Positions 10,332 through 63,447 of a stretch of DNA of 64,000 bases are shown here, piece by piece. Both the position numbers and the translations under genes were made by a program. A model generated the notes under the pieces. The model was not told the DNA's origin and did no database searches. It was given only the letters and a program-made list of their open reading frames with translations. Every line of letters begins with the position of its first letter. The stretch's first letter is position 1. The stretch comes from an uncultured Bifidobacteriaceae bacterium (GTDB lineage: Bacteria; Verrucomicrobiota; Verrucomicrobiia; Limisphaerales; UBA11358): assembly GCA_964655855.1 (NCBI GenBank), contig CAZZPE010000002.1, positions 89,076-153,075 of the forward strand. The letters are read 5' to 3'.

Positions 10332-12308
10332 TTATTTCGGCACCGGTGGGTTTAAGCCTCGGCCAATTTTGTCCAAAAACCCATTTGCCATTGACTGCAA
10401 GAAATCAGATGACATTTGCCTCCATGTAGGACTACCATTGTTGAAATCGGCAAAATAACTTATCAGATCAAGATTAATAGTAGTTGTATTGTCAGCATTT
10501 TGCTCTACAAATATTAAATACTGGTTAGCGTGCAGACTAAGTATCAATATCGAATGTTGAGTGGAGGTGGTCGTAATAATTCCCGTTTCAGCGTTTGAAT
10601 GAATTGATTCTTCTTTTTGTTGCGTTAGAATATTGAGCGTCGAATTCCACACTTTATTGAATGGAGCAGAGTATGTTCTTGTGTAATTAGGAAAAAGTCT
10701 CGCATTTTGAGTCGAAGCAATTAGATGTTGAAACCGCTTTTCATTCGCCTGCCGTTTTTCGGACGCTGCTTGTTGTTCAGACTGTAAGCGAGCCTTTTCC
10801 GCAGCCTGTTCAGCTTCTCCGATTGTTGCTTGCAATTTAACTGCGGCGGGATCATCAGGGTCAACAGCCAATGCTTTGGCAATGGCTGCTTTCGCGTCGA
10901 CAAGTTGTCCAGAATCAAGGGCTTCTTGTGCTTGCCCCATCGCTTGAAGATACTGTTCGCTGGTCAACTTTACTGAAAAGTTCGTTACCGCATTTTCGAC
11001 TGCGGAAATAATCAAATTCGTTGCCACATAACCATTGAGATTCAGTCCCACGCTTGAATTCCCCACTGGAACGCGATTAAGAGTCAGAGGCGTCTTGCCG
11101 ATTTCTTTTTCTTTGCGAATAACAGTCGCGCCTGCTGGCACGCTCATTAACTGAATCATGCCATAGCGAAAAACAAAAGGTTGTTTCACATTTTCCTTCG
11201 GGCTGACGCCGACATCTGCCATGAGGTCGTTGTCGCCGTCGGAAACGGTCAAATTATATGTTGCTGGCTTCAATTCTTGTAGCGTGATTGGCGTCTTTCC
11301 AATTTCTACGCCATTTTTTAAGACAACCAATCCAGTCGGTTCGCTCGTGACTTCAATTGAACCGTAGGAAAATTCCATTTTCTTCGTTGTGACACTCCCG
11401 CGAACTGCCGAGACAACCGAATCCAATTCCCAATCGCGCCTCGTGATAGACAGGGAATAATTTCCAACCGGCACATCTTCAATGTGTGCGGGTAGTTTCC
11501 CTTGCCAACGGTGTCCACCGCCAGACATCTCGTATTCCGCATCGGCGGGAACAGAGGACAATTCTACCTTGCCCAAATTCAACTCGACGGTTTCATTCGT
11601 TGTCTGCTGGCGCTGGACGTCAACGGTGCGAGTTTCCTGATAATCTCCGCGCTTGACAACCAGTGTGTAATTTCCGACCGGCAATTTTTCCACGTCCAAC
11701 GGCGCTGCGCCTTGATTTACAGTTTCACCGCCACGCTGCACAAGCACTGTGGCGGGCGACGGATTGACTATTACAACCAAATTCCCCTTGCTTGTCTCCA
11801 AAGGCAGATTCCCCAAATCTTTTATCCCGTAAAAAACCCAGAAATGCTGTTCATACGGTTCAACGTTTTGCATGGCGACGGAAATATCATGCCGGCCGGG
11901 TTTGAGATGATCACCGCTTCCGAAAAGCTGTCCGTCCACCGTTATTTCAGGCATTTGTCCTTTGGACATTTCCTTTCCATCTAGGACAAATCCGTATGTC
12001 AACGCCGTTCTCGCGGCGATTGATTTGTAAAGAACTGTCCCGCCATAAATGAGCGCACCGATGATTGCCAGCACAACCAATGCTGGTGGAATCGAAGTTT
12101 TACCTGTTCCAGCATTTATAGGTTGGGTTGGCACAGGGTCAGCGGGTGCCGCAACAACTTCGCGGCACGGTGTCCATTTTTCAGAATCAGTGGGACGCAC
12201 TGGTGTGTCGTCATTCAATACTCCGGCAAACCGCAACTGCGCCAAAGTGGTCAAATCGAGCGGACCAATTTCTTTGCCTGAATTGTCGTAATAAAAATAG
12301 TTTTGCAT
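10332..12308 (-). CDS. GYF_2 (DUF4339) - TM - multi-PEGA domain protein with coiled-coil/TPR-like tail
   Basis: N-terminus YFYYDNSGKEIGPLDLTTLAQL...W (GYF_2 pattern) and one TM (ALVVLAIIGALIYGGTVLY). At least four PEGA-like repeats (e.g. SVPAGATVIRKEKEIGKTPLTL, SEPTGLVVLKNGVEIGKTPITL). AT-rich. Confidence 0.7.
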   Translation of the reverse strand: MQNYFYYDNSGKEIGPLDLTTLAQLRFAGVLNDDTPVRPTDSEKWTPCREVVAAPADPVPTQPINAGTGKTSIPPALVVLAIIGALIYGGTVLYKSIAARTALTYGFVLDGKEMSKGQMPEITVDGQLFGSGDHLKPGRHDISVAMQNVEPYEQHFWVFYGIKDLGNLPLETSKGNLVVIVNPSPATVLVQRGGETVNQGAAPLDVEKLPVGNYTLVVKRGDYQETRTVDVQRQQTTNETVELNLGKVELSSVPADAEYEMSGGGHRWQGKLPAHIEDVPVGNYSLSITRRDWELDSVVSAVRGSVTTKKMEFSYGSIEVTSEPTGLVVLKNGVEIGKTPITLQELKPATYNLTVSDGDNDLMADVGVSPKENVKQPFVFRYGMIQLMSVPAGATVIRKEKEIGKTPLTLNRVPVGNSSVGLNLNGYVATNLIISAVENAVTNFSVKLTSEQYLQAMGQAQEALDSGQLVDAKAAIAKALAVDPDDPAAVKLQATIGEAEQAAEKARLQSEQQAASEKRQANEKRFQHLIASTQNARLFPNYTRTYSAPFNKVWNSTLNILTQQKEESIHSNAETGIITTTSTQHSILILSLHANQYLIFVEQNADNTTTINLDLISYFADFNNGSPTWRQMSSDFLQSMANGFLDKIGRGLNPPVPK

Positions 12309-12311
12309 AGT

Positions 12312-13628
12312 TCAAGGGAGGACGTGTCCAGGAATACTGCAAGTCACTTGTGGATATGAACCGACCGGGTGGAGTGTGTATGTGCCACCCGAAGGACAAG
12401 ACGGAACTTCCCCATTGGCGTTGAGTTTAATGTATGGCTTTACGTCTGTCATAGTAGGAATAGTGCCAACTGATTTTCCAGTTTCCAATGCCCATTCACT
12501 GATGGCTCCATCAATCTGCCGAAGATTGTTGATGCAGGTGTTAGCCCTTGATACAGCCTCCTCCGTTTTTACATTTGTTTCAATTTCTGACATTCGTTGT
12601 GGCGAGACTTGCATAACAGAACCATCTGTTAATACCACGACGTGATGAGTGGGGCAGATCGCCAAAACTTCACGGGGATTTGAATCGTTTACAATTAAAC
12701 CGGAATGTATCAAGTAACTTACATTTTCTGGGCGTAAATGAGCAAAATCTATTGCTGGCCTTTTTGAATCAGAAGGACACAGTAAAACTTTTGTTGCGGC
12801 CAACTCATTGGACATAACCTGAAGATGAAGAAAAGTATTTTTATCGAATCCATCCAATGTTCTATCGCAATACTCCATCGTTCCTCCCGATGCAATTCCG
12901 ACATTAAATGGATATTTATCTCCATGGTCTCCTTCCCATATTCTAAAAGCCAAACCGATCTGCTTTAGATTATTAACACAAGCATTAGCCTGTGATAAAG
13001 TTTCGTCATTTTCTGCTTGAGAAAGTAGTAAAGGATTAGAAGCACTCAATATATGCAATTCGTAAGGAGCCCCAAACCTCCATCCGCCTTCAGTTTTTAC
13101 GCCAATCATTTTGCCCGCATATCTTTCATGATCTCCAGAATGACTCGTAACGCCTCTGATTGTTACATCTCGCTCAAATTCGATTTCCGCCTCAAAATCA
13201 ATCTCATAGTTTTGAGTGGTTGATAAGTCTGAAGAATTTGTTTCCATAAACGACCGCCCGCTCGTTTCTTTAAAATTAACAAGATTGATTCCGTCATTGA
13301 GTAAATTTATCTGTTTGTAGTATGATCGTTTAGCTTCGGCTTCGTGGGGTGGCGCAGCATAATATTTTGCAAAAAATACGATCGCAACGGCAACCAATAG
13401 GCAAACCCATGTCCACCTAATGGATATATTGGAAAATTTTGGCGAGGCTTGTTGCAAAGGTGATGACGGCAGAAATTCACGCAAAGATTTCCATTCTGTA
13501 GAATTTTCAAGGCGTGCCGGAGTATTGTTATTTAACATTCCGACAGCGTGCAGTTTGGCTAGCGCAGCCAAATCAAGCGGACCAATTTCCTTGCCGGAAT
13601 TATCGCGATAAAAATAAGTAGCGCTCAT
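12312..13628 (-). CDS. GYF_2 (DUF4339) - TM - protein with two pseudopilin-like (DUF1559/GspG-like) modules
   Basis: N-terminus YFYRDNSGKEIGPLDLAALAKL...W and one TM. Modules: ANACVNNLKQIGLAFRIWEGDHGDKYPF...LLCPSD, and ANTCINNLRQIDGAISEWALETGK...SCPSGGTYTL. Confidence 0.7.
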   Translation of the reverse strand: MSATYFYRDNSGKEIGPLDLAALAKLHAVGMLNNNTPARLENSTEWKSLREFLPSSPLQQASPKFSNISIRWTWVCLLVAVAIVFFAKYYAAPPHEAEAKRSYYKQINLLNDGINLVNFKETSGRSFMETNSSDLSTTQNYEIDFEAEIEFERDVTIRGVTSHSGDHERYAGKMIGVKTEGGWRFGAPYELHILSASNPLLLSQAENDETLSQANACVNNLKQIGLAFRIWEGDHGDKYPFNVGIASGGTMEYCDRTLDGFDKNTFLHLQVMSNELAATKVLLCPSDSKRPAIDFAHLRPENVSYLIHSGLIVNDSNPREVLAICPTHHVVVLTDGSVMQVSPQRMSEIETNVKTEEAVSRANTCINNLRQIDGAISEWALETGKSVGTIPTMTDVKPYIKLNANGEVPSCPSGGTYTLHPVGSYPQVTCSIPGHVLP

Positions 13629-14461
13629 TGCATTAAGGCTCCTTTGAACAATGCACCCTTTAATTCATCTGACATTCCTTGAGCCATTTGATCTGCATAC
13701 ACAGCCATAAAGATAATTTTAGAAAGCCAGCAGGCTGCAACGATCACGACTGGCACCATAAATGTTCCCATGCGCTCATCAAGTCCCGAAATACGCGTGA
13801 GCCCGACGAACACCTGAAGCACTATTATACAGATTGAAACGAGAAAGATTATTGCCAAAACCTCAATATTGCCAAAACCAAGAATATTACACAGAAGAAG
13901 GTCAACCGCCCAAACGAGCGATATGGCTCCCGCGACAAAGACTTCGCCTCCAATATCACCTTCGCGGCGGTTAATTAAGCGCATGATAAACATCGCCGCC
14001 GCCCAAGTTAGGCAACAGGCCAAAATGGTGAAAAAAAGTTTTAGAAAACCTCCAAAATCGCCGGGGCGTATTATGCCAAAAGTTTTGGTCATATAAACCA
14101 GGAGCAGCGCTATGATTGCATAAACTGCAATAAATACAGCACCAACACCGCCCGCTTGCTTCGAACCTAGTTGCTGGTATGCAGGAAACATTCCACCAAC
14201 TGGATTGGTTAGCAAATTTACCCAGACACTTCTGGCGTGTTGCACCGCTTCGGAAACTTTGGCCATCGTAGGGGATTGCGAAGGCACATTGGACGTTTCC
14301 ACTTTTCCAACCACTGATACACAGGTGACCCACGCCCCACCGCTTTCTGGACGCACCAACGTGTGATCTTTTATTACACCGGCAAGCCGAAATGATTTTA
14401 AGTTTTCCAAGGAAACCGGTCCGATCTCCTGATTCTTTTCGTCCATGTAATGGTAGTTCAT
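13625..14461 (-). CDS. GYF_2 (DUF4339) - polytopic (Yip1-like) membrane protein
   Basis: N-terminus YMDEKNQEIGPVSLENLKSFRLAGVIKDHTLV...W, then about 5 hydrophobic helices. 4-nt overlap with the downstream gene. Confidence 0.65.
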   Translation of the reverse strand: MNYHYMDEKNQEIGPVSLENLKSFRLAGVIKDHTLVRPESGGAWVTCVSVVGKVETSNVPSQSPTMAKVSEAVQHARSVWVNLLTNPVGGMFPAYQQLGSKQAGGVGAVFIAVYAIIALLLVYMTKTFGIIRPGDFGGFLKLFFTILACCLTWAAAMFIMRLINRREGDIGGEVFVAGAISLVWAVDLLLCNILGFGNIEVLAIIFLVSICIIVLQVFVGLTRISGLDERMGTFMVPVVIVAACWLSKIIFMAVYADQMAQGMSDELKGALFKGALMQ

Positions 14462-14600: not shown

Positions 14601-15314
14601 TCACGCATTCAATGGTTGCGTTGGTGGCAGATCGAATTTCTTTCTCATGCCGGCGCTGGCGGGGTCGGTGTAGGGGAATTCACCGTCGGCGGCGTGCTGC
14701 AATTGGCGGCGGCGCAGGGTCAGGCTCACCACCATATTCGTCAGCTTCGTCCGCAAATCCTTGGCATCGCCCTTGCCGCCCACTTGCGTCACCTTGGTTG
14801 CCTTGTAGGTGTCGGACGCGGTCTTGAGATCTGTGGCGTGTTGCGCGGCAATTTTCGGCAGGGTGTCGGTCTTGAGCTTGTTCAAAATGTTGTCGGCGGC
14901 GGTTTCCAGCGCGGGACGGCTGATGTCTATGTTGGTGCCAATGCCGTATTCGGCAAGGGCGTTGCTGTTGCCGATGTATTTGACTTTGGCCTTGCTCTGG
15001 ATGTAATGGACTTTGGCCAGCAGCACCTTTTTGGCGGTGGTCTCGGCGCCGGTTTCCTGCTTGGCGTCGGTGACGGCTTCGGACGCGCCGCCGGTGTATT
15101 GGCTCATTGTCTGCAAATCAGTCCCCAGCTTGGTCATGAAATCGGCCGTGATGATCTGGTCGTCCTGGATTTTGGCAAAGGTCGCGGGATCGCCGGCCAC
15201 GCCGTAAATGGTGTTGGTGTGGCTGATTTCGGCGAGCTGGTGTTTGTCGAGGAGACCGTGGTGTTTTGGGGTTTTGGCGGCGGGTGTGGGTGCGGGTGTC
15301 GGATTATCGCTCAT
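14601..15314 (-). CDS. Hypothetical alpha-helical protein
   Basis: Start set at MSDNPTPAPTP (ATG 15314). The longer ORF to 15428 only adds translated repeat DNA. No known motif. Confidence 0.45.
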   Translation of the reverse strand: MSDNPTPAPTPAAKTPKHHGLLDKHQLAEISHTNTIYGVAGDPATFAKIQDDQIITADFMTKLGTDLQTMSQYTGGASEAVTDAKQETGAETTAKKVLLAKVHYIQSKAKVKYIGNSNALAEYGIGTNIDISRPALETAADNILNKLKTDTLPKIAAQHATDLKTASDTYKATKVTQVGGKGDAKDLRTKLTNMVVSLTLRRRQLQHAADGEFPYTDPASAGMRKKFDLPPTQPLNA

Positions 15315-15324
15315 AGTTTTTATT

Positions 15325-15359
15325 GGGAGTTTGGAGTTGGGAGTTGGAAGCTTGGAATG
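15325..15359. repeat. Heptanucleotide tandem repeat (gggagtt/tggagtt, about 5 units; family C)
   Basis: gggagtt tggagtt gggagtt ggaagct tggaatg, immediately 5-prime of the 14601-15314 gene start. Confidence 0.75.
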
Positions 15360-15376
15360 GCTGCGAAAGGTCTGGA

Positions 15377-15421
15377 GCGCGCGGACATGTCCGCGCCCGG
15401 AAAGCGGCGACATGTCGCCGC
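15377..15421. repeat. Two perfect 18-nt palindromes (family A hairpins)
   Basis: gcgcggacatgtccgcgc (15379-15396) and gcggcgacatgtcgccgc (15404-15421), separated by ccggaaa. Confidence 0.85.
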
Positions 15422-15449
15422 AGTCCATGCAAGCACCGGCTTACGCTGC

Positions 15450-15727
15450 AAATCGGTGGATTTCGCGGATTTTAAGGCAAATCCGCCGGTTTTCCGGGGA
15501 ACTCCGCGCATTGGAAGGCTCACTCCACTGAAACGGAACCGCACTCCACTGGTTTGGATTGGATCTCCGCTGTCCCGCTTTGTTATTCCGCTGTTTCGGA
15601 AAGGCGCTCCGCTGAAACGGATGTCTGCTCCTCCGCTGCGGATTGTCACTCCACCGGATTTGGCGGGCACTCCGCTGCCGCAGGTTGCAACTCCACCGCT
15701 CCGGGAATCCACTCCGCTGGTTTGAAA
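15450..15727. repeat. Degenerate 21-bp tandem array, about 12-13 units (array 1)
   Basis: Units such as ctcactccactgaaacggaac / cgcactccactggtttggatt / ggcgctccgctgaaacggatg / ggcactccgctgccgcaggtt. Conserved core aCTCCgCTG recurs every 21 nt. Confidence 0.75.
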
Positions 15728-15932
15728 TGCGAATGAAGCGCCGTCCGGCCAGACGCCATTGGGCAACAAAAAATCCCTCCCGGAAAGCGAATGCGTCTTG
15801 CTCTCGTGATTTGCAAACGACACCACATGCCATTTGTAACCCATATCCACTGACGTGTGCTTGCCGAGGACTATAAGCAAATTCCAAAATCAATGGCAAG
15901 AAAAAAGATTTTAAAAATAACAAACCGGTTTC

Positions 15933-17264
15933 CTATGCCTCCGCCCGGCTCAAAACTTCGCCATCAGCCAGTCGAGTCTTCAATTTCTGACCGGCCTTCA
16001 CCTTCGCCGCCTCGCGCAGCACCCTGCCCGTCGCCGCGTCCATCGTGATGGAATAGCCGCGCGACAACACCTGCTCCGGGCCGAGCAATTGCAATCGCGA
16101 TTCCGCCGCCGCCAGGCCACTCTTCAAATCCCTGAACCGGACGCGCGCCAGTTCGCGCAGACGATGCTGCGTCACTGCCAACAGCTCGCGCCGCTGCTTC
16201 AGCAGTTGTTTCGGGCGGACCTGACGCAAACGCGCCGCCAGATTTTGGCAGGTGACTTGACGCTCGCTCACACCTTGACGTCCGCAGCGCAGCAAGCTCG
16301 TCTGCAAATCGTCCATCCGCTGAAACAATTCATCCAACCGCTTGCGCGGATGCGCCTGCGTCATCCGGCGCGCAAGACTTTCCACCAATTGCCGGCTCGC
16401 GAACACGCCTTCGGTGATGATTTCCGCCGCCGCGCTCGGCGTGGCCGCGCGCACGTCCGCCACGAAATCCGCGATGGTGAAATCTATCTCATGCCCGACG
16501 GCGGAGACGACGGGAATGGCCGATTCAAAAATCGCCCGCGCCACAATTTCCTCGTTGAACGCCCACAAATCCTCCAGCGAACCGCCGCCGCGAGTGACCA
16601 AAATCAGGTCAAGGCTGAAGGCTGAAGGCTGAAGGCTGAAATCGTTGAGCAGCCGGATTGCACTCGCAATTTCCTCCGAAGCGCCGTCGCCCTGGACGCG
16701 GCAGGGCGCGAGGATGATTTCCAGCCCCGGATTTCGCCGGCGCACGACATGCAGCACGTCACGGATGGCCGCGCCGGTCGGCGACGTGACCAGGCCGATG
16801 CGCTGCGGATATTTCGGCAGCGGCCGTTTCCGTTCCGGCGCGAACAAGCCTTCCGCCGCGAGCTTTTGTTTCAGTTTCTCGAACGCGATTTGCAGCGCGC
16901 CGACGCCCTGCAATTCCACCGCGCGCACGATGAGCTGGTATTGCCCGCGCGCCTCGTAGACCGTCACATCGCCTTGCAGCAAAACCTTCTGGCCGTCCGC
17001 GAGCAGTTCGCGGTGCGGAATCTTCTCGCGGCTGAACAGGACGCAGCTCAACTGCGACGCCGCGTCCTTGAGCGTGAAATAAATGTGGCCGGAGGATTGC
17101 GCCCGGAAATTCGTGATTTCACCGCCCACCCAGACGGAGCCGACCTGTTTTTCGAGCAATGCGCGAACCTGCGCCGTCAGTTCCGAGACGGACAGAACCT
17201 TGCGGGTCTGTTCCACCGGAAACAGCTCGCCAAAATCCCACTGTGATTTGGATTGCTTGCTCAT
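15933..17264 (-). CDS. xseA: Exodeoxyribonuclease VII large subunit
   Basis: VLSVSELTAQVRALLE...VWVGGEITNFRAQSSGHIYFTLKD (OB fold), then LILVTRGGGSLEDLWAFNEE. Start set at ATG 17264. Confidence 0.85.
   Translation of the reverse strand: MSKQSKSQWDFGELFPVEQTRKVLSVSELTAQVRALLEKQVGSVWVGGEITNFRAQSSGHIYFTLKDAASQLSCVLFSREKIPHRELLADGQKVLLQGDVTVYEARGQYQLIVRAVELQGVGALQIAFEKLKQKLAAEGLFAPERKRPLPKYPQRIGLVTSPTGAAIRDVLHVVRRRNPGLEIILAPCRVQGDGASEEIASAIRLLNDFSLQPSAFSLDLILVTRGGGSLEDLWAFNEEIVARAIFESAIPVVSAVGHEIDFTIADFVADVRAATPSAAAEIITEGVFASRQLVESLARRMTQAHPRKRLDELFQRMDDLQTSLLRCGRQGVSERQVTCQNLAARLRQVRPKQLLKQRRELLAVTQHRLRELARVRFRDLKSGLAAAESRLQLLGPEQVLSRGYSITMDAATGRVLREAAKVKAGQKLKTRLADGEVLSRAEA
16611..16640. repeat. 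Heptanucleotide tandem repeat (aaggctg x4) inside the xseA coding sequence
   Basis: aaggctgaaggctgaaggctgaaggctg, read directly. Encodes FSLQPSAFSL in the loop just before the TRGGGS motif. Confidence 0.85.
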
Positions 17265-17367
17265 CGAATTCCAAACCCATTTAGCCATGCCCGCCGCGCC
17301 GAGGCAAGCGCAGGAGGAAATTAACACGGAAATTGACTCTCGTCCGGCGCTGCTTGATGCTGTCGCC

Positions 17368-18678
17368 ATGAACCACAAGCCGCAATCAGCGCATTTTCTG
17401 CCATTGGGCGGACTCCTCATCGGGCTGGCGATTGCCAGCGGCTGCACCGGCCTCCGGCCGGCGGCGCCACGAACGCTCCCTGCCGTCGCCGATTTGCCCG
17501 TCCAGACAAACATGCCCAGCCCGCTCGTCACCGACGACGGCAAAATCATCACGACGCCGAGGCAGTGGCAGGCGCATCGCGCGGAGATGAAGCAGATCAT
17601 CGAGCATTACGCCATCGGTCACGCGCCGCCGCCGCCCGGCAATGTGACTGGACGCGAACTGGAGTCCAGAACGCTCGCCGATGGCAGGACATCCTATCGC
17701 CTCGTGCATCTGGCGTTTGGCCCCGGGGAAAAACTGGGATTAGACATTTCCATTTTTCTGCCCATTGAAACCAACGGAATCAAAGCACCGTTTCCCGTGA
17801 TTGTTCAACCGTCATTTTTTGCAATTTCGGAAAATGCGCCGCCGCCGGCTCCGGCGACGAACGCCGTTGCCAGCGGCACAAATTCCGCGCCCGTGAAAAA
17901 ACCACCGGGCTATCACACCTTCATCACGCCCGAAGAGGCGGCGGCGCAATATTCACAGGCGTTGGATCGCGGTTATGCCGTCGTCACTTTTTTTTACCAG
18001 GATTGCGGCCAGGACGGCGGGGATTATCGGAAGACCGGATTTTTCCCGGCCTACCCGGATTACGACTGGGCGGATCTCGCCGCATGGGCGTGGGGCATGT
18101 CGCGCTGTGTGGATTATCTGGAGCATCAAAGCTTCGCGGACAAATCCAAATTCATCGCCGTCGGCCATTCACGGCTCGGCAAGGCCACGCTCGTTGCCGG
18201 CGCGTTTGACGAACGCTTCGCGCTAGTTGCGCCCTGCGGCTCCGGCTGCGGCGGCACCGGCGCGTATCGTTTCAATGGCAAGGGTCGCGGCGGCAGGGAA
18301 GGTCTGGAGGACATCGTGAATCATTTTCCACAATGGACGATTCCGCGCCTCGCGGAATTTTCCAACCGCGTTGAAAGACTGCCGTTCGACCAGCACTGGC
18401 TCATTGATCTCGTCGCGCCGCGCTTGTTCATCGCACCCGACGGCTTGAACGACACCGCCGCCAGCGTCAACGCGCTCGTCCAGTCTTATCTCGCCGCCAA
18501 GCCGGTGTATGCGCTGCTCGGCGTGCCGGACCATCTGGGCATCAATTTCCGTCCGGGCAAGCACATGCTCGCTCCGGAGGACTGGACGGCCATTTTGGAT
18601 TTATCCGATCAGCAGCTTCGCAAGCGGGACGTGAAACGCCGCTTCGATCAACTGCCGCCGCCGGAACCGGCGCTTTAA
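17368..18678 (+). CDS. Alpha/beta hydrolase lipoprotein, CE15 glucuronoyl-esterase-like
   Basis: Lipobox (LAIASGC). GHSRLGKATL resembles the CE15 G-C-S-R-x-G nucleophile motif. Start set at ATG 17368. Confidence 0.55.
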   Translation: MNHKPQSAHFLPLGGLLIGLAIASGCTGLRPAAPRTLPAVADLPVQTNMPSPLVTDDGKIITTPRQWQAHRAEMKQIIEHYAIGHAPPPPGNVTGRELESRTLADGRTSYRLVHLAFGPGEKLGLDISIFLPIETNGIKAPFPVIVQPSFFAISENAPPPAPATNAVASGTNSAPVKKPPGYHTFITPEEAAAQYSQALDRGYAVVTFFYQDCGQDGGDYRKTGFFPAYPDYDWADLAAWAWGMSRCVDYLEHQSFADKSKFIAVGHSRLGKATLVAGAFDERFALVAPCGSGCGGTGAYRFNGKGRGGREGLEDIVNHFPQWTIPRLAEFSNRVERLPFDQHWLIDLVAPRLFIAPDGLNDTAASVNALVQSYLAAKPVYALLGVPDHLGINFRPGKHMLAPEDWTAILDLSDQQLRKRDVKRRFDQLPPPEPAL

Positions 18679-39707: not shown

Positions 39708-40472
39708 ATGACAAAGCGCTCCGATCTAAAACCGAAGAAAAAAGAAAGAGTGTGCGTGTTACTGGAACGAGCTGGAATTAAGGTTGTAAGAAACCAATAT
39801 TTTCTGTCTGAATGGGCTTATGTTGAATCAGGGAGGGTTGCTGTCCTAAATTTTTGGTTCGCGCAAATGAAGCAACGAGGTCAGGACATTGTTTTTAATA
39901 AGAATTTCCTTGAAGCCTACGACGCGAGAGGGAAGAGGAATCAAGCCAGAGTAAAACAAGCGATTAGAGAAAAACTTCCAATTCGCATTATTGTTCTGGA
40001 TGGAAAGATGGGCAGTCCCAAGGGAAGCATTGTTTCCAAAAGGCAATTGGATCCAGCCATTTGGCGTGTGACTGCTGTTGACCAAAAAACTGGTGATTAC
40101 ACTTTGACGCGAGTAGCAGAAATGGAGAATGCCATTGATGACCTGTCGGCTCCTCCAGAGGGAAATCAGTTTCCAGATAGGGCAAGCGTCGTTGTCCAAG
40201 CCATAAAACGTGATAATCGAGTAAGGGCACACGCGATTAAACGTGCGAGAGGAAAATGCGAATATTGCAATGTTCAGGGTTTTGCTACAACAAACGGTCG
40301 CTTCTATGTGGAAGCCCATCACATTATTGCGCTATGCGATGCGGGACGCGACACGGTTGACAATGTGATTGCGCTTTGTCCACAGCACCACCGGCAAGCA
40401 CATTACGGTAAAGATGCGGAATCTCTGGAGTCGGAATTCATCAAGATTTTAGAGAAGTTGAACAAGAAATAA
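39708..40472 (+). CDS. HNH endonuclease with an uncharacterised about 170-aa N-terminal domain
   Basis: C-terminal CEYC...EAHHIIALCDAGRDTVDNVIALCPQHHRQAH (HNH/McrA-like). AT-rich. gggaaagga Shine-Dalgarno. Confidence 0.75.
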   Translation: MTKRSDLKPKKKERVCVLLERAGIKVVRNQYFLSEWAYVESGRVAVLNFWFAQMKQRGQDIVFNKNFLEAYDARGKRNQARVKQAIREKLPIRIIVLDGKMGSPKGSIVSKRQLDPAIWRVTAVDQKTGDYTLTRVAEMENAIDDLSAPPEGNQFPDRASVVVQAIKRDNRVRAHAIKRARGKCEYCNVQGFATTNGRFYVEAHHIIALCDAGRDTVDNVIALCPQHHRQAHYGKDAESLESEFIKILEKLNKK

Positions 40473-40590
40473 TAGGTGTCCCGCCTTGCGCCCGCCCCTT
40501 TCCGTGGTGCTGCGCTTCCGCCTGCGTTTCACTTCCGCCTTCATCCGGTTTCGACGAGACGTTTTGGGGAGCACATGCCTCGCGCGTGTC

Positions 40591-40633
40591 GTTTTCGGCG
40601 TCGCGCCGAAAACCTCGTCCGGCAAACTTGCCG
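40591..40633. repeat. Two GC-rich hairpins adjoining array 2
   Basis: gttttcggcg-tcg-cgccgaaaac (10-bp stem) and cggcaa-ac-ttgccg. Confidence 0.7.
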
Positions 40634-40676
40634 CTGCATTTCAAACAAAACTGGCTTTTGTTCAGAATAACCGATT

Positions 40677-41000
40677 TTGGGGGATTCTTACATAAATCCA
40701 TGACGAAGGAACATTGATGTTCCATAGATTAACATCAATCCATGTCAGGTTAATGTTCATTCGTTGTAAAAGAATGTTCCTTTGCCACGGATTAATCTTC
40801 TTTCGCTTAAGAGGATATTCGTTCGTCACGGTTTAACATTCGGATGCGATAAATGAATGTTCTTCCATCGTAAAAGAACATTCTCCCGTGACGGATTGAT
40901 GTTCTCCTGTCATGGATTTACGTGATTTTTGGTTCGCGGATGATCCTCCAACCACGGCTTTTCCTGATTTTCTAAAACCGGGTCACGGGTTTCTCCCTTT
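40677..41000. repeat. Degenerate about 21-bp tandem array, AT-rich, about 14-16 units (array 2)
   Basis: Units such as cacggattaatcttctttcg / cacggtttaacattcggatg / catcgtaaaagaacattctcc / cgtgacggattgatgttctcc / tgtcatggatttacgtgattttt. Recurrent GGATT...TTCTCC core. Confidence 0.65.
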
Positions 41001-41131
41001 CCGTGGTGCTGCGCCGTGCCTTCGCCTTCGTCCGCGTGCGCCGCAGGCTTGTCAATTCCAACCATCGGACAGGCTGTGGAGGGATTTTGCTCCGGTAAAA
41101 ACCCTTGAGGGAAATTCGCAAATCTGCTTTT

Positions 41132-50676: not shown

Positions 50677-51483
50677 TCAACCGCGATATTTCTTCATCAA
50701 CGCCAGTATTTCCTTCACGGCCTGCCGCATTCCCACGAACACCGCGCGGCTGATGATGCTGTGACCGATGTTCAATTCCACCAGATGCGGCACGGGGAAA
50801 AGCGCCGCCAGGTTTTTGTAATTCAAGCCGTGGCCGGCGTTCACCTTCAAGCCGAGCGCATGCGCCTGCTCCGCGCCGGATACCAGCCGCCTTAGCTCAA
50901 AATTCGTAGCAGCCGACGTAAGTCGGCTCTGATTAGCTTTTGATTGTTTAGAGTGAGCCAACTCACGTTGGCTGCCACGAGTAAACGCCTCCGCAAACGC
51001 GCCGGTGTGCAGCTCGATGAATTGCGCGCCGGTCCGCGCGCTGGCTTCAATCTGTTTTTCGTCCGGCGCGATGAACAGGCTCACCTCGATGCCAGCGTCG
51101 TTCATTTTCCGGCGCGTCTCGGCCAGCGATTTTTCGGCGGCGACCACGTCCAGCCCGCCTTCGGTCGTCACCTCCAGCCGGCGTTCCGGCACGATGCAGA
51201 CGATGTCCGGTTTTAATTTCAGCGCGATGACGATGATTTCCGGCACGTTGGCCATTTCGAGGTTCAGCCGCGTCTTGACGACTTCGCGCAGTTTCCAGAT
51301 GTCGCGGTCCTGCATGTGCCGGCGGTCTTCGCGCAAATGCGCGGTGATGCCGTGACAGCCCGCCGCCTCGCAAATTTTTGCGGCCTCGATGGGATCCGGC
51401 TCGCCAAATCCGCGTCCGCGAAAGCGCGCCTCGCGGATCGTCGCGACATGGTCAATGTTGACTCCCAGTTTTAGCATAATCAT
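50677..51483 (-). CDS. pdxJ: Pyridoxine 5-prime-phosphate synthase
   Basis: LGVNIDHVATIREAR, HLREDRRH, EVTTEGGLDV, LKVNAGHGLNY, ELNIGHSII. Carries an in-frame family B repeat. Confidence 0.85.
   Translation of the reverse strand: MIMLKLGVNIDHVATIREARFRGRGFGEPDPIEAAKICEAAGCHGITAHLREDRRHMQDRDIWKLREVVKTRLNLEMANVPEIIVIALKLKPDIVCIVPERRLEVTTEGGLDVVAAEKSLAETRRKMNDAGIEVSLFIAPDEKQIEASARTGAQFIELHTGAFAEAFTRGSQRELAHSKQSKANQSRLTSAATNFELRRLVSGAEQAHALGLKVNAGHGLNYKNLAALFPVPHLVELNIGHSIISRAVFVGMRQAVKEILALMKKYRG
50906..50978. repeat. REPIN-like inverted doublet (family B) inside pdxJ
   Basis: gtagcagccgacgtaagtcggctc-(25-nt spacer)-gagccaactcacgttggctgccac; translated in frame as ...AHSKQSKANQSRLTSAATN... Confidence 0.8.
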
Positions 51484-62604: not shown

Positions 62605-62988
62605 ATGAGCTATATTGACCCTGATCTATTACACGGTGCCCTGACGGACGTGGGAACCTTCATCACCAACAATTCGGCGGCCATCACGGCGGGCGGCGTG
62701 ACGGTGGCCTCGCTCTCCACCAAGGCGACGGCCATCCAGACGAGCCTTTCCGGCACGAAAGGCATCCGCGATCAGCAGAAGGCGGCGCTGGCCGTGGCGC
62801 AGCAAAACTTTGCCGCCAGCGCGGCCACGAATTACACGGCGTTCAGCGATTTGATTGACACGCTGGCGGGCGCGGTGGGCAAACACACCCCGGCGGGCCA
62901 ACAGGTGCTGGGCTATCGCACCCATGTGACGGGCGGCAGCCACCATGCCAAGGCCACGCCCGCCACCGCTGCCGCCACGGCAAAATAA
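62605..62988 (+). CDS. Hypothetical Ala/Thr-rich protein
   Basis: 127-aa ORF with ggagaa Shine-Dalgarno and a downstream hairpin plus T-run. No motif. Confidence 0.4.
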   Translation: MSYIDPDLLHGALTDVGTFITNNSAAITAGGVTVASLSTKATAIQTSLSGTKGIRDQQKAALAVAQQNFAASAATNYTAFSDLIDTLAGAVGKHTPAGQQVLGYRTHVTGGSHHAKATPATAAATAK

Positions 62989-63005
62989 GACGTCTAAAGC
63001 GTCTG

Positions 63006-63072
63006 ACCCTCACCCCGTCCCTCTCCCATCCGATGGGAGAGGGTGGCCGAAGGCCGGGTGAGGGTTTTTCTC
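63006..63072 (+). terminator. Family F nested hairpin doubling as a terminator candidate
   Basis: accctcaccc-cgtc-cctctccc-atccgat-gggagagg-...-gggtgagggt, followed by ttttctc. Confidence 0.55.
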
Positions 63073-63097
63073 GTAAGTGCCTCATCCTCAAGCAGAA

Positions 63098-63360
63098 GCG
63101 CGGGGGCTATTTTCAACTCCCCCCTCGCTTTTTGCAAAGTCCCCGGCGCTTTTTGGACAGGCGGCGGGAGAGCTGGCATCGGCGTGGGGGACTTTGGCAA
63201 AGGAAACGGGGGAGCTGGCACCGGCGGGGTCGCCTTTGGCACCGGCGACGGGGGCTTTCGGAAAGGCGCGGTCGCCGACGGCAGGGGCGAGGGGAAAGTT
63301 CGCGCCGGCGCGGGGGCTTTTTCAAAAGGCCGGGTCGCCTGCGCGGACGGCACGGGGGAG
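63098..63360. repeat. Degenerate about 21-bp tandem array, G-rich, about 12 units (array 3)
   Basis: Units such as gggggactttggcaaaggaaac / gggggagctggcaccggc / gggtcgcctttggcaccggcgac / gggggctttcggaaaggcgc / gggggctttttcaaaaggcc. Confidence 0.65.
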
Positions 63361-63370
63361 AATTTGGACT

Positions 63371-63439
63371 GCGGCGACACGTCGCCGCTTTCCCCGACGC
63401 GACATGTCGCGTCGAACCAAAGCGCGGACTTGTCCGCGC
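63371..63439. repeat. Three 18-nt palindromes, two perfect and one with central mismatches (family A hairpins)
   Basis: Perfect: gcggcgacacgtcgccgc (63371-63388) and gacgcgacatgtcgcgtc (63396-63413). gcgcggacttgtccgcgc (63422-63439) has 7-bp arms around a non-complementary cttg centre. tttgg/ccaaa closes the first two. Confidence 0.85.
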
Positions 63440-63447
63440 CTTCCAGA

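What the first reader, a model, noticed from the sequence alone, without database searches (positions are those of the whole stretch)
15325..15727. Composite non-coding element, copy 1: 21-bp periodic array, two perfect palindromes and a heptamer repeat upstream of a gene
Read on the minus strand, toward the 14601-15314 gene, the region has four parts. First come about 12-13 degenerate 21-bp units with a conserved CAGCGGAGTG core and tttNNNaaa-like spacers. Then follow the perfect 18-nt palindromes gcggcgacatgtcgccgc and gcgcggacatgtccgcgc, about 5 heptamer units (aactccc/aactcca), and finally the ATG. The same order, array then palindromes, recurs at 40591-41000 and 63098-63439. A 21-bp period equals two helical turns, so the cores would lie on one DNA face. 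That is typical of cooperative protein-binding arrays or iteron-like sites. There are no unique spacers or cas genes, so it is not a CRISPR array. All frames stay open because of the GC content, so the long ORFs across it are not evidence of coding. I cannot assign it to any described element class.
Basis: seen in the sequence. Interest (0 to 1): 0.65.

Follow-up and report, generated by a model that had tools for sequence, protein, structure and literature searches.

The report
Repeat-filled leader reading frame before gene
The 21-base repeat array is real, but it is not one composite DNA element: it sits inside a long reading frame that is kept open yet not selected as a protein, runs from a conserved promoter and start codon to the start of a conserved Verrucomicrobia gene, and most likely controls that gene through its own translation.

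Summary
In 64 kb, only three places show lag-21/42 periodicity, and 15455-15727 (minus strand) is one of them.

The "composite" is three separate things:
- **Array.** About 13 units of 21 nt with the core CA-RY-GGAG-YG. It is found upstream of homologues of the 237-aa gene in about 24 of 33 Limisphaerales loci.
- **Palindromes.** They are a mobile REP/MITE-like insert. The closest relatives lack them.
- **Heptamers.** They belong to the gene's own C/A-rich start region and persist where the array is missing.

There is no codon-level selection and no GC3 signature. The same core is read in two different frames in different lineages.

Even so, the frame set by a conserved ATG, 14-26 nt after a conserved sigma-70-like promoter, is stop-free up to the gene start in 13 of 17 loci. 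The other sense frames manage 4 of 34 and the antisense frames 0 of 51.

My best reading is a translated upstream ORF of about 110-250 codons, without protein-level constraint and coupled to the downstream gene. The 7-codon period keeps the frame when units are gained or lost.

Arrays evolve faster than synonymous sites, and cores can be swapped. What the core does, and why arrays 2 and 3 share the period without such an ORF, remain unexplained.

The parts
15870..15899 (-). Sigma-70-like promoter, TTGCCA-18-TATAGT, preceded by an A/T-rich tract
   Evidence: Found by the promoter scan. Equivalent TTGAC(A/G)/TTGCCA-N17-18-(T/A)AAAGT-type boxes lie at the same relative position in almost all related loci.
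15320..15844 (-). Upstream ORF of 174 codons. ATG at 15844-15842; TAA at 15322-15320, which leaves 5 nt before the gene ATG. It contains the array, the palindromes and the heptamer tract.
   Evidence: The ATG lies 26 nt after the -10 box. The equivalent ATG-frame is stop-free to within 45 nt of the gene start in 13 of 17 loci, against 4 of 34 and 0 of 51 for the other frames. There is no codon-level constraint and GC1/2/3 is flat. The product has only 8 database hits, all from orthologous leaders.
15455..15727 (-). 21-nt tandem array, 13 units. Unit: G-NNN-CA-[AG][CT]-GGAG-[TC]G-NNN-(T)TCC. The last two units form a conserved tail, ...CGGATTTGCCTTAAAA.
   Evidence: Supported. The position weight matrix from 112 units in 10 loci is. 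The array is found upstream of the gene homologue in most related loci.
15371..15426 (-). REP/MITE-like insert, GGACTG-[GCGGCGACATGTCGCCGC]-TTTCCGG-[GCGCGGACATGTCCGCGC]-GCTCCAGA. The palindromes are at 15404-15421 and 15379-15396.
   Evidence: Located. It is present only in the window strain and in L016/41/42. It is absent from L006/7 and L053. A second copy is at 63365-63445.
15323..15347 (-). C/A-rich heptamer tract (CAACTCC-type) directly upstream of the gene ATG. It is the gene's own translation-start region and also the 3' end of the upstream ORF.
   Evidence: Tandem Repeats Finder (TRF) reports period 7. CAAC-type heptamers are kept in relatives, including L018 and L020, which lack the array.
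14601..15314 (-). Conserved 237-aa gene of unknown function. It is predicted all-alpha, has a Pro-rich N-terminus, and has no Shine-Dalgarno sequence.
   Evidence: 72 homologues, all from Verrucomicrobiae/Limisphaerales metagenome-assembled genomes (MAGs). There is no hit in Pfam, NCBIfam, PHROGs or PDB. The AlphaFold2 model has pLDDT 65.
40688..40937 (.). Second 21/42-nt array (copy 2). It is AT-rich, has an unrelated core (AATGTTC / GTCACGGA), and its first units are inverted relative to the rest.
   Evidence: Supported. It has stops in all six frames. It is flanked by perfect 20-nt direct repeats at 40496 and 40995.
63140..63365 (+). Third 21/42-nt array (copy 3). It is G-rich, lies between convergent genes, and is followed by three GACATGTC-type palindromes (63371-63388, 63396-63413, 63422-63439). 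The strand assignment is uncertain.
   Evidence: Supported. Arrays occupy the same position 3' of the 127-aa gene homologue in L054-L056, with different cores.

Best explanation
The array is the body of a long upstream ORF (uORF) in the leader of the 237-aa gene. That ORF is translated but is not under selection as a protein.

**Shown by the data**
- A conserved sigma-70-like promoter is followed 14-26 nt later by a conserved ATG.
- The frame set by that ATG stays open for 109-256 codons, through the 21-nt repeats and through any inserted REP-like hairpins.
- It stops 57 nt before to 4 nt after the first base of the gene's ATG (an ATGA overlap in several loci).
- The peptide is not conserved, and the frame relative to the repeat core differs between lineages.
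- Repeat indels are 21 or 42 nt.
- The core CA-RY-GGAG-YG and the following TTCC(G) are conserved at the nucleotide level.

**Inferred**
- Ribosomes load near the 5' end, translate through the array and finish next to the start codon of the 237-aa gene. That start has no Shine-Dalgarno sequence, only a C/A-rich heptamer tract.
- This would promote the gene's translation by reinitiation or RNA unfolding. It would also shield about 500 nt of leader from Rho-dependent polarity and from hairpins.
- A 7-codon unit lets the array grow, shrink and recombine without breaking the frame.
- In some relatives an 8-nt repeat, (CCGCGCAA)n, near the 5' end of the uORF shifts the frame and would act as an on/off switch.
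- The conserved core is probably a cis-acting RNA signal repeated 10-19 times, such as a multivalent binding site or a paced pause that tunes ribosome or RNA polymerase transit. Its reader is unknown.
For: **The leader is transcribed and starts at a fixed point**
- The promoter is predicted in the window and seen at the equivalent position across loci.
- A conserved ATG follows the -10 box.

**The ORF is kept open**
- The ATG-frame is open in 13 of 17 loci. The other sense frames are open in 4 of 34 and the antisense frames in 0 of 51.
- Six more loci were checked and five have an ORF from an upstream ATG (at a hand-picked conserved-ATG anchor in L053 and L009, any upstream ATG in the others) that runs through the array to the gene start: L053, L009, L023, L032 and L043; L046 does not.
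- Stops fall at -57 to +4 relative to the gene ATG, apart from L016, where the uORF has no stop before the gene and continues into it.

**The peptide is not selected**
- The same core is read as S/N/T-G/P/K-V in L001, L006, L016, L008, L014, L011 and L030.
- It is read as Q/H-R/G/Q-S in L013, L029, L034, L039, L047 and L027.
- There is no codon-position bias. Syn/nonsyn counts are 129/556, 111/577 and 124/569 in the three frames.
- GC1/2/3 is flat in the uORF, against a strong GC3 signature in the main gene.
- The uORF product has only 8 close hits, against 72 for the 237-aa protein.

**The array behaves like a frame-neutral module**
- Indels inside the array are 21 or 42 nt. Elsewhere in the leader they include 1, 5, 10 and 19 nt.
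- REP-like inserts in the window, L006, L008, L016 and L030 all leave the frame open.
- The 8-nt repeat has n=1 or 4 where the uORF is open (L008, L011, L014) and n=6 or 8 where it is broken (L012, L025).

**The core is a nucleotide-level signal**
- C4 is conserved at 98%, A10 at 92% and G9 at 97% over 112 units.
- The array RNA folds no better than shuffled sequence (z = -0.67), which suits a translated, unstructured stretch.

**Precedents**
- ORFs inside mycobacterial interspersed repetitive units (MIRUs) are coupled to the downstream gene at -4, and some uORFs exist only to drive downstream translation (PMC12548453).
- A repeat-driven leader-peptide switch controls S. gallolyticus pil1 (PMC3894217).
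Against: - There is no transcript or ribosome data. Both translation and the promoter are inferred.
- Four of 17 loci break the rule (L021, L025, L012, L031), and L028 has CTG instead of ATG.
- The gene keeps its C/A-rich start region and survives without the array in L018, L020 and L049. Coupling is therefore not essential.
- The model does not explain the conserved core.
- It does not explain why the core changes in concert. GG becomes AA or CC in L027, L030, L031 and L034. A wholly different TGCCCCG array sits behind the L008-type leader in L021.
- It does not explain why copy 2 (stops in all frames) and copy 3 (between convergent genes, no consistently open frame) have the same 21/42-nt period. 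This suggests the period belongs to the repeat class, for example through helical phasing, and is not only a matter of frame keeping.
- The loci are not phylogenetically independent, so the 13 of 17 overstates the number of independent observations. There are roughly 10 lineages.
Confidence: 0.5

Rival explanations
1. The array works as DNA. It would be an iteron-like set of phased binding sites, one per two helical turns, for a cooperative DNA-binding protein that acts as a roadblock, a repressor filament or a structural site.
For: - The period is exactly 21 bp in three arrays with unrelated sequences. One has no open frame (copy 2) and one lies between convergent genes (copy 3).
- The core is conserved at the nucleotide level.
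- TTT/AAA spacers tend to alternate, and copies 2 and 3 have a 42-bp super-period.
- Copy 2 is AT-rich and contains inverted units, which resembles an origin or centromere-like site.
Against: - It does not explain why one ATG-defined sense frame is kept open.
- It does not explain why array indels and REP inserts preserve that frame.
- The array lies downstream of the promoter.
- No Rep-, ParB- or RHH-type gene is adjacent.
- The core occurs only once outside the array in 64 kb.
- The core differs between close relatives whose flanks and neighbouring protein barely change (L008 against L021). A co-evolving binder would have to be encoded somewhere else.
Confidence: 0.15
2. The ORF encodes a real protein: a fast-evolving, intrinsically disordered, Arg/Ser/Gly-rich heptad-repeat protein. 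Only its composition and length would matter, not its sequence.
For: - The ORF is retained from a conserved ATG.
- Gene callers predict it in every relative.
- Both reading frames give basic, low-complexity heptads.
- In L016 it is fused in frame with the 237-aa gene.
- 21-nt tandem repeats found elsewhere are usually coding heptads.
Against: - There is no excess of third-position change and no difference in syn/nonsyn between frames.
- GC1/2/3 is flat.
- Two different frames are used across lineages.
- The best-conserved bases are third codon positions in one of the frames in use.
- Different REP-like elements are incorporated into the C-terminal part.
- There is no detectable homology beyond the orthologous leaders.
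Confidence: 0.15
3. The array is an untranslated regulatory RNA that acts as a multi-site sponge or scaffold, like CsrB/RsmZ. Its roughly 12 GGA-containing motifs would titrate an RNA-binding protein.
For: - A promoter lies directly upstream.
- 10-19 copies of a GGA-containing 10-mer all sit on one strand.
- The RNA has little stable structure, so the motifs would be single-stranded.
Against: - ORF retention is left unexplained.
- GGA is replaced by AAA or CCA in L027, L030, L031 and L034, and by an unrelated core in L021.
- No hairpin covariation surrounds the motif.
- There is no Rfam match.
- No intrinsic terminator follows the array.
Confidence: 0.1
4. The array is a neutral or selfish minisatellite that expands in a tolerant leader. 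It has no function of its own, and only those variants that keep the leader ORF open are tolerated.
For: - Arrays evolve as fast as, or faster than, 4-fold degenerate sites. For L016 against L053, 4-fold sites and leader are 100% identical while the array is 78% identical. For L032 against L047 the figures are 0.99 and 0.89.
- Unit number varies from 6 to 19.
- The array has been lost in some lineages.
- A whole array has been swapped.
Against: - The core and the tail motif are kept across lineages whose synonymous sites are saturated.
- Conservation is very uneven within the unit: core 90-98%, spacer about 30-40%.
- The same 21-nt period appears in all three arrays of the window and no other period is seen.
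- The array keeps its position next to the same genes in many relatives.
Confidence: 0.1

Closest known systems
Mycobacterial interspersed repetitive units (MIRUs)
   Same: Both are tandem repeats in the transcribed space before a gene. [quoted passage not shown] Copy number is variable in both.
   Different: - MIRU units are 40-100 bp and near-identical. They are dispersed at about 40-50 sites and sit between genes of an operon.
- Here the units are 21 nt and only a 10-nt core is conserved.
- The ORF has its own promoter and ATG and is 110-250 codons long.
- Dispersal as a mobile element has not been shown.
Leader-peptide or uORF control with a repeat-driven frame switch (S. gallolyticus pil1; classical attenuation and Rho polarity)
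   Same: An upstream ORF whose translation, not its product, sets expression of the downstream gene. A short non-triplet repeat changes its frame and length. Hairpins in the leader can be melted by the ribosome (PMC3894217, PMC12548453).
   Different: - Known leader peptides are short, a few tens of codons at most.
- This ORF is about 170 codons and consists mostly of a 7-codon repeat with a conserved nucleotide core.
- No canonical terminator or antiterminator pair was found.
- The 8-nt switch is seen only in relatives, not in the window.
CsrB/RsmZ-type multi-GGA sponge RNAs and TRAP-type repeat leaders
   Same: A short GGA-containing motif is repeated many times on one strand of a promoter-driven leader RNA.
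   Different: - There is no Rfam match.
- The motifs are not in hairpin loops.
- GGA is not kept in all lineages.
- The region is kept open for translation.
Plasmid iterons and centromere-like repeat arrays (for example 19-22 bp iterons, parC, sopC)
   Same: Direct repeats of about 21 bp in helical phase, 10 or more copies, with a conserved core and variable spacer.
   Different: - The context is chromosomal, with no rep or par gene nearby.
- The array lies between a promoter and a gene, always on the sense strand.
- The ORF-retention signal is not expected for iterons.
REP/BIME or MITE-like extragenic palindromes (for the two 18-nt palindromes only)
   Same: GC-rich perfect hairpins in clusters. 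Near-identical strains differ in whether they carry them. Several copies occur per genome.
   Different: - Only 2 sites occur in 64 kb.
- All three known insertions lie at the 3' end of a 21-nt array in the same orientation.
- No associated REP-associated tyrosine transposase (RAYT) or other transposase was identified.

Membership tests
CRISPR array | Repeats of 23-50 nt alternating with unique spacers of similar length | tested here: not met
   The whole unit is 21 nt, a 10-nt core plus a semi-conserved 11 nt. There are no unique spacers.
CRISPR array | cas genes or a leader nearby | tested here: not met
   The neighbours are xseA, a glucuronyl-esterase-like gene, GYF_2-domain genes and genes of unknown function. 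The window was not scanned exhaustively for cas genes.
Protein-coding heptad-repeat gene | Codon-level purifying selection, seen as an excess of third-position and synonymous change in one frame | tested here: not met
   Substitutions are even over codon positions. Syn/nonsyn is 129/556, 111/577 and 124/569 in the three frames.
Protein-coding heptad-repeat gene | Coding composition signature and a conserved protein sequence | tested here: not met
   GC1/2/3 is about 0.55/0.55/0.55 in the uORF, against 0.57/0.44/0.78 in the neighbouring gene. Two different frames are used in different lineages. Only 8 homologues exist, all close.
Translationally coupled upstream ORF / leader ORF | A start codon close to a promoter, with an open frame reaching the downstream start codon | tested here: met
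   The ATG lies 14-26 nt after the -10 box. The frame is open in 13 of 17 loci, against 4 of 34 and 0 of 51 for the other frames. Stops fall at -57 to +4.
Translationally coupled upstream ORF / leader ORF | The uORF is actually translated, and downstream expression depends on that translation | not testable with these tools
   This needs Ribo-seq or reporter mutagenesis.
MIRU-like intercistronic repeat | The ORF inside the repeat ends at or overlaps the start of the downstream gene | tested here: met
   There is an ATGA overlap in L008, L014 and L023, and a 2-6 nt gap in the window, L006, L011, L027, L030 and L034.
MIRU-like intercistronic repeat | A dispersed, mobile family of near-identical units inserted at many start codons | tested here: not met
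   This core occurs only at this locus in the window, plus one isolated match. Units are only about 50% identical to each other. The other two arrays have unrelated cores and no coupled ORF.
Phase-variable leader ORF (pil1-type) | A non-triplet simple repeat inside the leader ORF whose copy number sets the frame | tested here: inconclusive
   (CCGCGCAA)n has n=1 or 4 where the frame is open and n=6 or 8 where it is broken, in relatives L008, L011, L014, L012 and L025. The window has no such repeat. Switching within a population has not been shown.
CsrB/RsmZ-type sponge RNA | Multiple GGA motifs presented in hairpin loops of an untranslated sRNA that has its own terminator | tested here: not met
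   There is no Rfam hit. The fold is no better than shuffled sequence. No local covariation is seen. No terminator follows. GGA is lost in L027, L030, L031 and L034.
Iteron / centromere-like DNA repeat array | Phased direct repeats next to the gene for their binding protein (Rep, ParB, ParR), with an AT-rich or DnaA-box context | tested here: not met
   The repeats are phased, but no such gene is adjacent. The context is chromosomal and conserved across MAGs. There is no similarity to plasmids.
Iteron / centromere-like DNA repeat array | Specific cooperative protein binding to the double-stranded repeats | not testable with these tools
   This needs DAP-seq, EMSA or footprinting.
REP/MITE-like palindromic element (palindromes only) | GC-rich hairpin units with presence/absence polymorphism between close relatives and several genomic copies | tested here: met
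   There are two sites in the window. The element is present in L016/41/42 but absent from L053, which has near-identical flanks and a 115-nt indel. It is also absent from L006/7.
REP/MITE-like palindromic element (palindromes only) | An associated REP-associated tyrosine transposase (RAYT) or other transposase, and genome-wide dispersal | not tested

The most novel reading that the evidence does not exclude
Limisphaerales genomes may carry a previously undescribed class of 21-nt-period cassette arrays. Each array would have its own 7-10-nt core, homogenised within the array and exchangeable between arrays. Examples are the L008-type leader carrying either a CAATGGAGTG array or a TGCCCCG array, and the copy 3-type arrays 3' of the 127-aa gene. 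The arrays sit at fixed positions next to small conserved genes and evolve faster than synonymous sites. The core would be a swappable specificity module read by a multivalent nucleic-acid-binding factor or by the transcribing or translating machinery. This would be a new kind of cis-regulatory repeat system and not merely a variant of uORF coupling.
Probability: 0.2. Interest if true: 0.85.

Novelty: new variant of a known kind. Interest (0 to 1): 0.62.

Why it matters
If the model is right, a bacterial leader ORF of about 170 codons exists only to be translated. It is built from a 7-codon repeat that can expand, contract, recombine and even be replaced without breaking the frame, and it sits upstream of a widely conserved Verrucomicrobia gene of unknown function.

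That would extend uORF and translational-coupling control, known mostly from very short leader peptides, to long repeat-based leaders in a poorly studied, mostly uncultured order. It would also explain a set of "hypothetical proteins" that gene callers predict in these MAGs but that are not proteins under selection.

Three puzzles are left: the nucleotide-conserved core, its concerted replacement between relatives, and the same 21/42-nt period in two arrays without an ORF. Together they point to a reader of the repeat that has not been identified, and this is now testable with reporters, pull-downs and metatranscriptomes.

On the practical side, the work separates three things that look like one element: the array, a mobile REP-like palindrome pair, and the gene's C/A-rich start tract.

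Tried and rejected
- **Rfam.** The gathering-threshold search of the whole window and the E-value search of the region found nothing meaningful.
- **RNA folding.** Copy 1 folds no better than shuffled sequence on either strand (z = -0.67 and 0.01). Copy 3 folds better (z = -5.0 on the + strand, -2.9 on the - strand). At least some of that reflects its palindromes and the pairing between its C-rich and G-rich units.
- **Pairing between or within units.** A test over 102 units (112 minus the near-duplicate L015) found only a weak TTT/AAA alternation (z about 3-4 over 861 tests). There is no hairpin around the core, and the GGA and UCC motifs do not covary.
- **Coding in frame GGA+0.** Rejected, because the most conserved bases would be third codon positions and L013 and others have stops in that frame.
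- **Coding in frame GGA+2.** The variable core positions would be synonymous in this frame, which looked attractive. The substitution test and the GC3 test ruled it out.
- **Array core pairing with the CAACTCC heptamers.** This works in the window only and is not conserved in relatives.
- **The 237-aa protein as the specific binder of its own leader.** Disfavoured, because L021 has the same leader type as L008 but a different array.
- **Function of the 237-aa and 127-aa proteins.** Pfam, NCBIfam, PHROGs, PDB sequence search, AlphaFold2 and Foldseek gave nothing. The two proteins are unrelated to each other.
- **Plasmid similarity of copies 1 and 2.** None found.
- **Viral-contig scan for three GGAGTG cores at 21-nt spacing.** It returned 85 hits. 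The highest-ranked ones inspected have near-perfect 21-nt units, mostly inside longer open frames, and look like ordinary coding heptad repeats; none resembles the array here.
- **Literature searches** for 21-nt repeats or tandem repeats in Verrucomicrobia or Limisphaerales found nothing relevant.
- **Copy 3 orientation and a possible ORF.** No frame is consistently open in the window or in L054-L056, so this stays unresolved.
Full report
**1. The observation**

Read on the minus strand, 15727-15455 consists of 13 units of exactly 21 nt. Eleven carry a CAGCGGAGTG-type core, and two are degenerate tail units.

Lag-21 identity is 0.51. The maximum over all lags in shuffles has mean 0.324 and highest value 0.383. 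In the 64-kb window only three regions exceed the mean by 4 SD: 15410-15767, 40688-40937 and 63023-63391. Among lags 4-69, only 21/42/63 produce arrays.

The two perfect 18-nt palindromes are at 15404-15421 and 15379-15396. The heptamer tract is at 15323-15347. So the description is accurate.

The claimed recurrence is only partly accurate. The other two arrays share the period but have unrelated cores. The GACATGTC palindromes recur only at 63371-63439.

**2. Context and relatives**

The array lies between xseA (15933-17600, minus strand) and a 237-aa gene (14601-15314, minus strand) that has no family assignment. That gene has 72 homologues, all from Verrucomicrobiae/Limisphaerales MAGs.

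I fetched about 50 related loci. In about 24 of 33 usable loci, the only lag-21 periodic stretch lies directly upstream of the homologue on the same strand. This holds even where the next gene upstream differs: xseA, a DUF433/DUF5615 pair, or others. The array is missing in L018, L020 and L049.

**3. The "composite" is three things**

*Palindromes.* They are found only in the window strain and in L016/41/42. The closest relative (L006/7, 86% protein identity) carries a different repeat there. L053 is identical to L016 in the leader and at the gene's 4-fold sites, yet lacks a 115-nt block that contains them. They are therefore a mobile REP/MITE-like insert. It is curious that all three known insertions (copy 1, copy 3, L016) sit at the 3' end of a 21-nt array in the same orientation.

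*Heptamers.* CAAC-type heptamers just before the ATG are kept in all relatives, including those without an array. They belong to the gene's start region, which has no Shine-Dalgarno sequence.

**4. It is not a protein under selection**

- Copy 2 has stops in all six frames.
- For copy 1, orthologous pairs show substitutions spread evenly over codon positions in all three frames. Syn/nonsyn ratios are indistinguishable: 129/556, 111/577 and 124/569.
- GC1/2/3 is flat at about 0.55 each, whereas the adjacent gene shows 0.57/0.44/0.78.
- A position weight matrix from 112 units shows the constraint is on nucleotides. The unit is G-NNN-C(98%)A-[AG][CT]-G-G(97%)-A(92%)-G-[TC]-G-NNN-(T)TCC.
- The putative product has only 8 database relatives, all from orthologous leaders.

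**5. Yet one frame is kept open**

Almost every locus has a TTGAC(A/G)/TTGCCA-N17-18-(T/A)AAAGT-type promoter with an A/T-rich tract. In the window it is 15899-15870. An ATG follows 14-26 nt after the -10 box.

The ORF from that ATG runs 109-256 codons through the whole array and through any REP-like insert. It stops between 57 nt before and 4 nt after the first base of the gene's ATG, with an ATGA overlap in L008, L014 and L023.

I counted stops from the ATG to 45 nt before the gene:

| Frame set | Stop-free loci or frames |
|---|---|
| ATG-frame | 13 of 17 |
| Other two sense frames | 4 of 34 |
| Antisense frames | 0 of 51 |

. If the loci were independent and the background rate were 12%, the probability would be about 1e-9. 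They represent roughly 10 lineages, so the true figure is weaker but still strong. I checked six more loci and five have such an ORF from an upstream ATG to the gene start (L053, L009, L023, L032, L043); L046 does not.

The decisive point is that the open frame differs relative to the repeat core. The same nucleotides are read as S/N/T-G/P/K-V in L001, L006, L016, L008, L014, L011 and L030. They are read as Q/H-R/G/Q-S in L013, L029, L034, L039, L047 and L027. Selection therefore acts on openness of the frame, not on the peptide.

Indels inside arrays are 21 or 42 nt. Indels elsewhere in the leader include 1, 5, 10 and 19 nt.

In the L008 group, an 8-nt repeat (CCGCGCAA)n lies in the 5' part of the ORF. 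It has n=1 or 4 where the frame is intact and n=6 or 8 where it is broken.

**6. Dynamics**

Arrays change as fast as, or faster than, synonymous sites:

| Pair | 4-fold sites | Leader | Array |
|---|---|---|---|
| L016 / L053 | 1.00 | 1.00 | 0.78 |
| L032 / L047 | 0.99 | 0.93 | 0.89 |
| L008 / L014 | 0.86 | 0.95 | 0.67 |

Unit number ranges from 6 to 19. Cores change in concert within an array. The GG of CA-AC-GG-AGTG becomes AA or CC in L027, L030, L031 and L034, while the CA, the AGTG, the TTCCG and the tail ATCA..TTTCCCTTAAAA are kept. L021 has the promoter, ATG and leader of L008 but a completely different array of 14 or more units with a TGCCCCG core. Similarity to L008 resumes at the REP-like element.

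**7. Most likely mechanism**

*Shown.* The data show a promoter-like element, a conserved ATG, and frame retention up to the gene start. They also show no protein-level constraint, a nucleotide-level core, and frame-neutral repeat dynamics.

*Inferred.* The leader is translated, and termination next to the gene's start, which lacks a Shine-Dalgarno sequence, promotes its translation by reinitiation or unfolding. Translation would also keep about 500 nt of leader, including the inserted GC hairpins, from causing Rho-dependent polarity or blocking the start. These principles are reviewed in PMC12548453. The same review describes MIRU ORFs coupled at -4 and uORFs that exist only to drive downstream translation.

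The 8-nt repeat would work like the GCAGA leader-peptide switch of S. gallolyticus pil1 (PMC3894217). I think the core is a repeated cis-acting RNA signal, either a multivalent binding site or a pacing signal, but nothing here identifies its reader.

I put about 0.8 on "kept-open, non-protein leader ORF" and about 0.5 on the full coupling model.

**8. What does not fit**

- The gene can exist without the array.
- Four of 17 loci have a broken frame.
- The coupling model explains neither the core nor its concerted replacement.
- Copies 2 and 3 share the 21/42-nt period without any ORF logic. Copy 2 has stops in every frame and an inverted-unit layout between 20-nt direct repeats.
- Copy 3 lies between convergent genes. 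Relatives have arrays at the same spot 3' of the 127-aa gene, but with different cores and no consistently open frame.

The period may therefore be a property of a wider repeat class, with helical phasing or an unknown reader behind it. This keeps the DNA-binding rival alive at about 0.15, along with the more novel reading given separately.

**9. Comparison with known systems**

It is not a CRISPR array, not an Rfam family, not a CsrB-like sponge by the tests available, not an iteron array by context, and not a heptad-repeat protein gene.

It works most like a MIRU-type coupled intercistronic repeat, or like a leader-peptide/uORF regulator with a repeat-driven frame switch. It differs from both in four ways: unit size, degeneracy around a conserved core, ORF length, and having its own promoter and start.

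I found no description of it in the searchable literature. I rate it a new variant of a known kind, with an unexplained component that could prove more novel.

Noticed in passing
L008 2518, L014 2051, L025 903, L012 1958, L011 2110 (relatives; not present in the window): An 8-nt tandem repeat, (CCGCGCAA)n, lies in the 5' part of the upstream ORF. Its copy number is 1, 4, 8, 6 and 1. Copy numbers of 1 and 4 leave the uORF open to the gene start, while 6 and 8 break the frame. It looks like a slipped-strand on/off switch.
   Followed up: partly
L021 960-1400 compared with L008 2530-2900: The promoter, ATG and leader are the same, and so are the REP-like element and gene start. The array between them is entirely different: a TGCCCCG core against CAATGGAGTG. 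A whole array cassette has been swapped. The TGCCCCG core resembles the reverse complement of the window's copy 3 core.
   Followed up: partly
window 63371-63439 and 15371-15426; L016 2305-2365: All three known copies of the GACATGTC palindrome element sit immediately 3' of a 21-nt array in the same relative orientation, although the arrays have different cores. This suggests either a target preference or co-mobilisation.
   Followed up: partly
window 40496-40515 and 40995-41014: Perfect 20-nt direct repeats (CCCTTTCCGTGGTGCTGCGC), 499 nt apart, bracket the AT-rich copy 2 array. This lies just downstream of an HNH-endonuclease gene (39708-40472). The first units of the array are inverted relative to the rest around 40715. 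It could be an inserted cassette or an origin-like site.
   Followed up: partly
window 62605-63365; L054-L056 2501-3230: The 127-aa gene of unknown function always has a 21/42-nt array directly 3' of it in relatives, beyond a terminator-like hairpin. The array sequences differ. In L054, C-rich units are followed by complementary G-rich units, which could form a long hairpin.
   Followed up: partly
L016 1823-2592: In this relative the upstream ORF has no stop before the gene and is fused in frame with the 237-aa gene. The repeats would then be an N-terminal extension of the protein.
   Followed up: no
window 10332-14461 (minus strand) and 14601-15314: Three consecutive genes downstream of the 237-aa gene carry GYF_2 domains, which bind proline-rich peptides. 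The 237-aa protein has a conserved Pro-rich N-terminus (PTPAPTPA). A GYF_2 gene is also nearby in L008. A protein-protein link is possible.
   Followed up: no
window 63009-63070; also L008, L012, L021, L030 between the array and the gene: A second dispersed hairpin repeat, CCCTCACCC...CCCATCGGATGGGAGAGGG...GGGTGAGGG, recurs in many loci. It acts as a terminator-like hairpin after the 127-aa gene. A third repeat, TTTACCACGGATGAACACCGATGGACACAGAT, appears in L006, L016 and L018.
   Followed up: no
window 51168-51370: This is the only other periodic stretch in the window. It has lag 45 and identity 0.50 and lies inside the 50677-51483 minus-strand ORF. It is probably a 15-residue protein repeat.
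   Followed up: no
L018 850-1400: In the relative with an 87%-identical gene but no array, an antisense ORF abuts the gene's start region (I did not run a domain search; by eye its translation resembles a serine recombinase). The array may have been lost through a mobile-element insertion.
   Followed up: no
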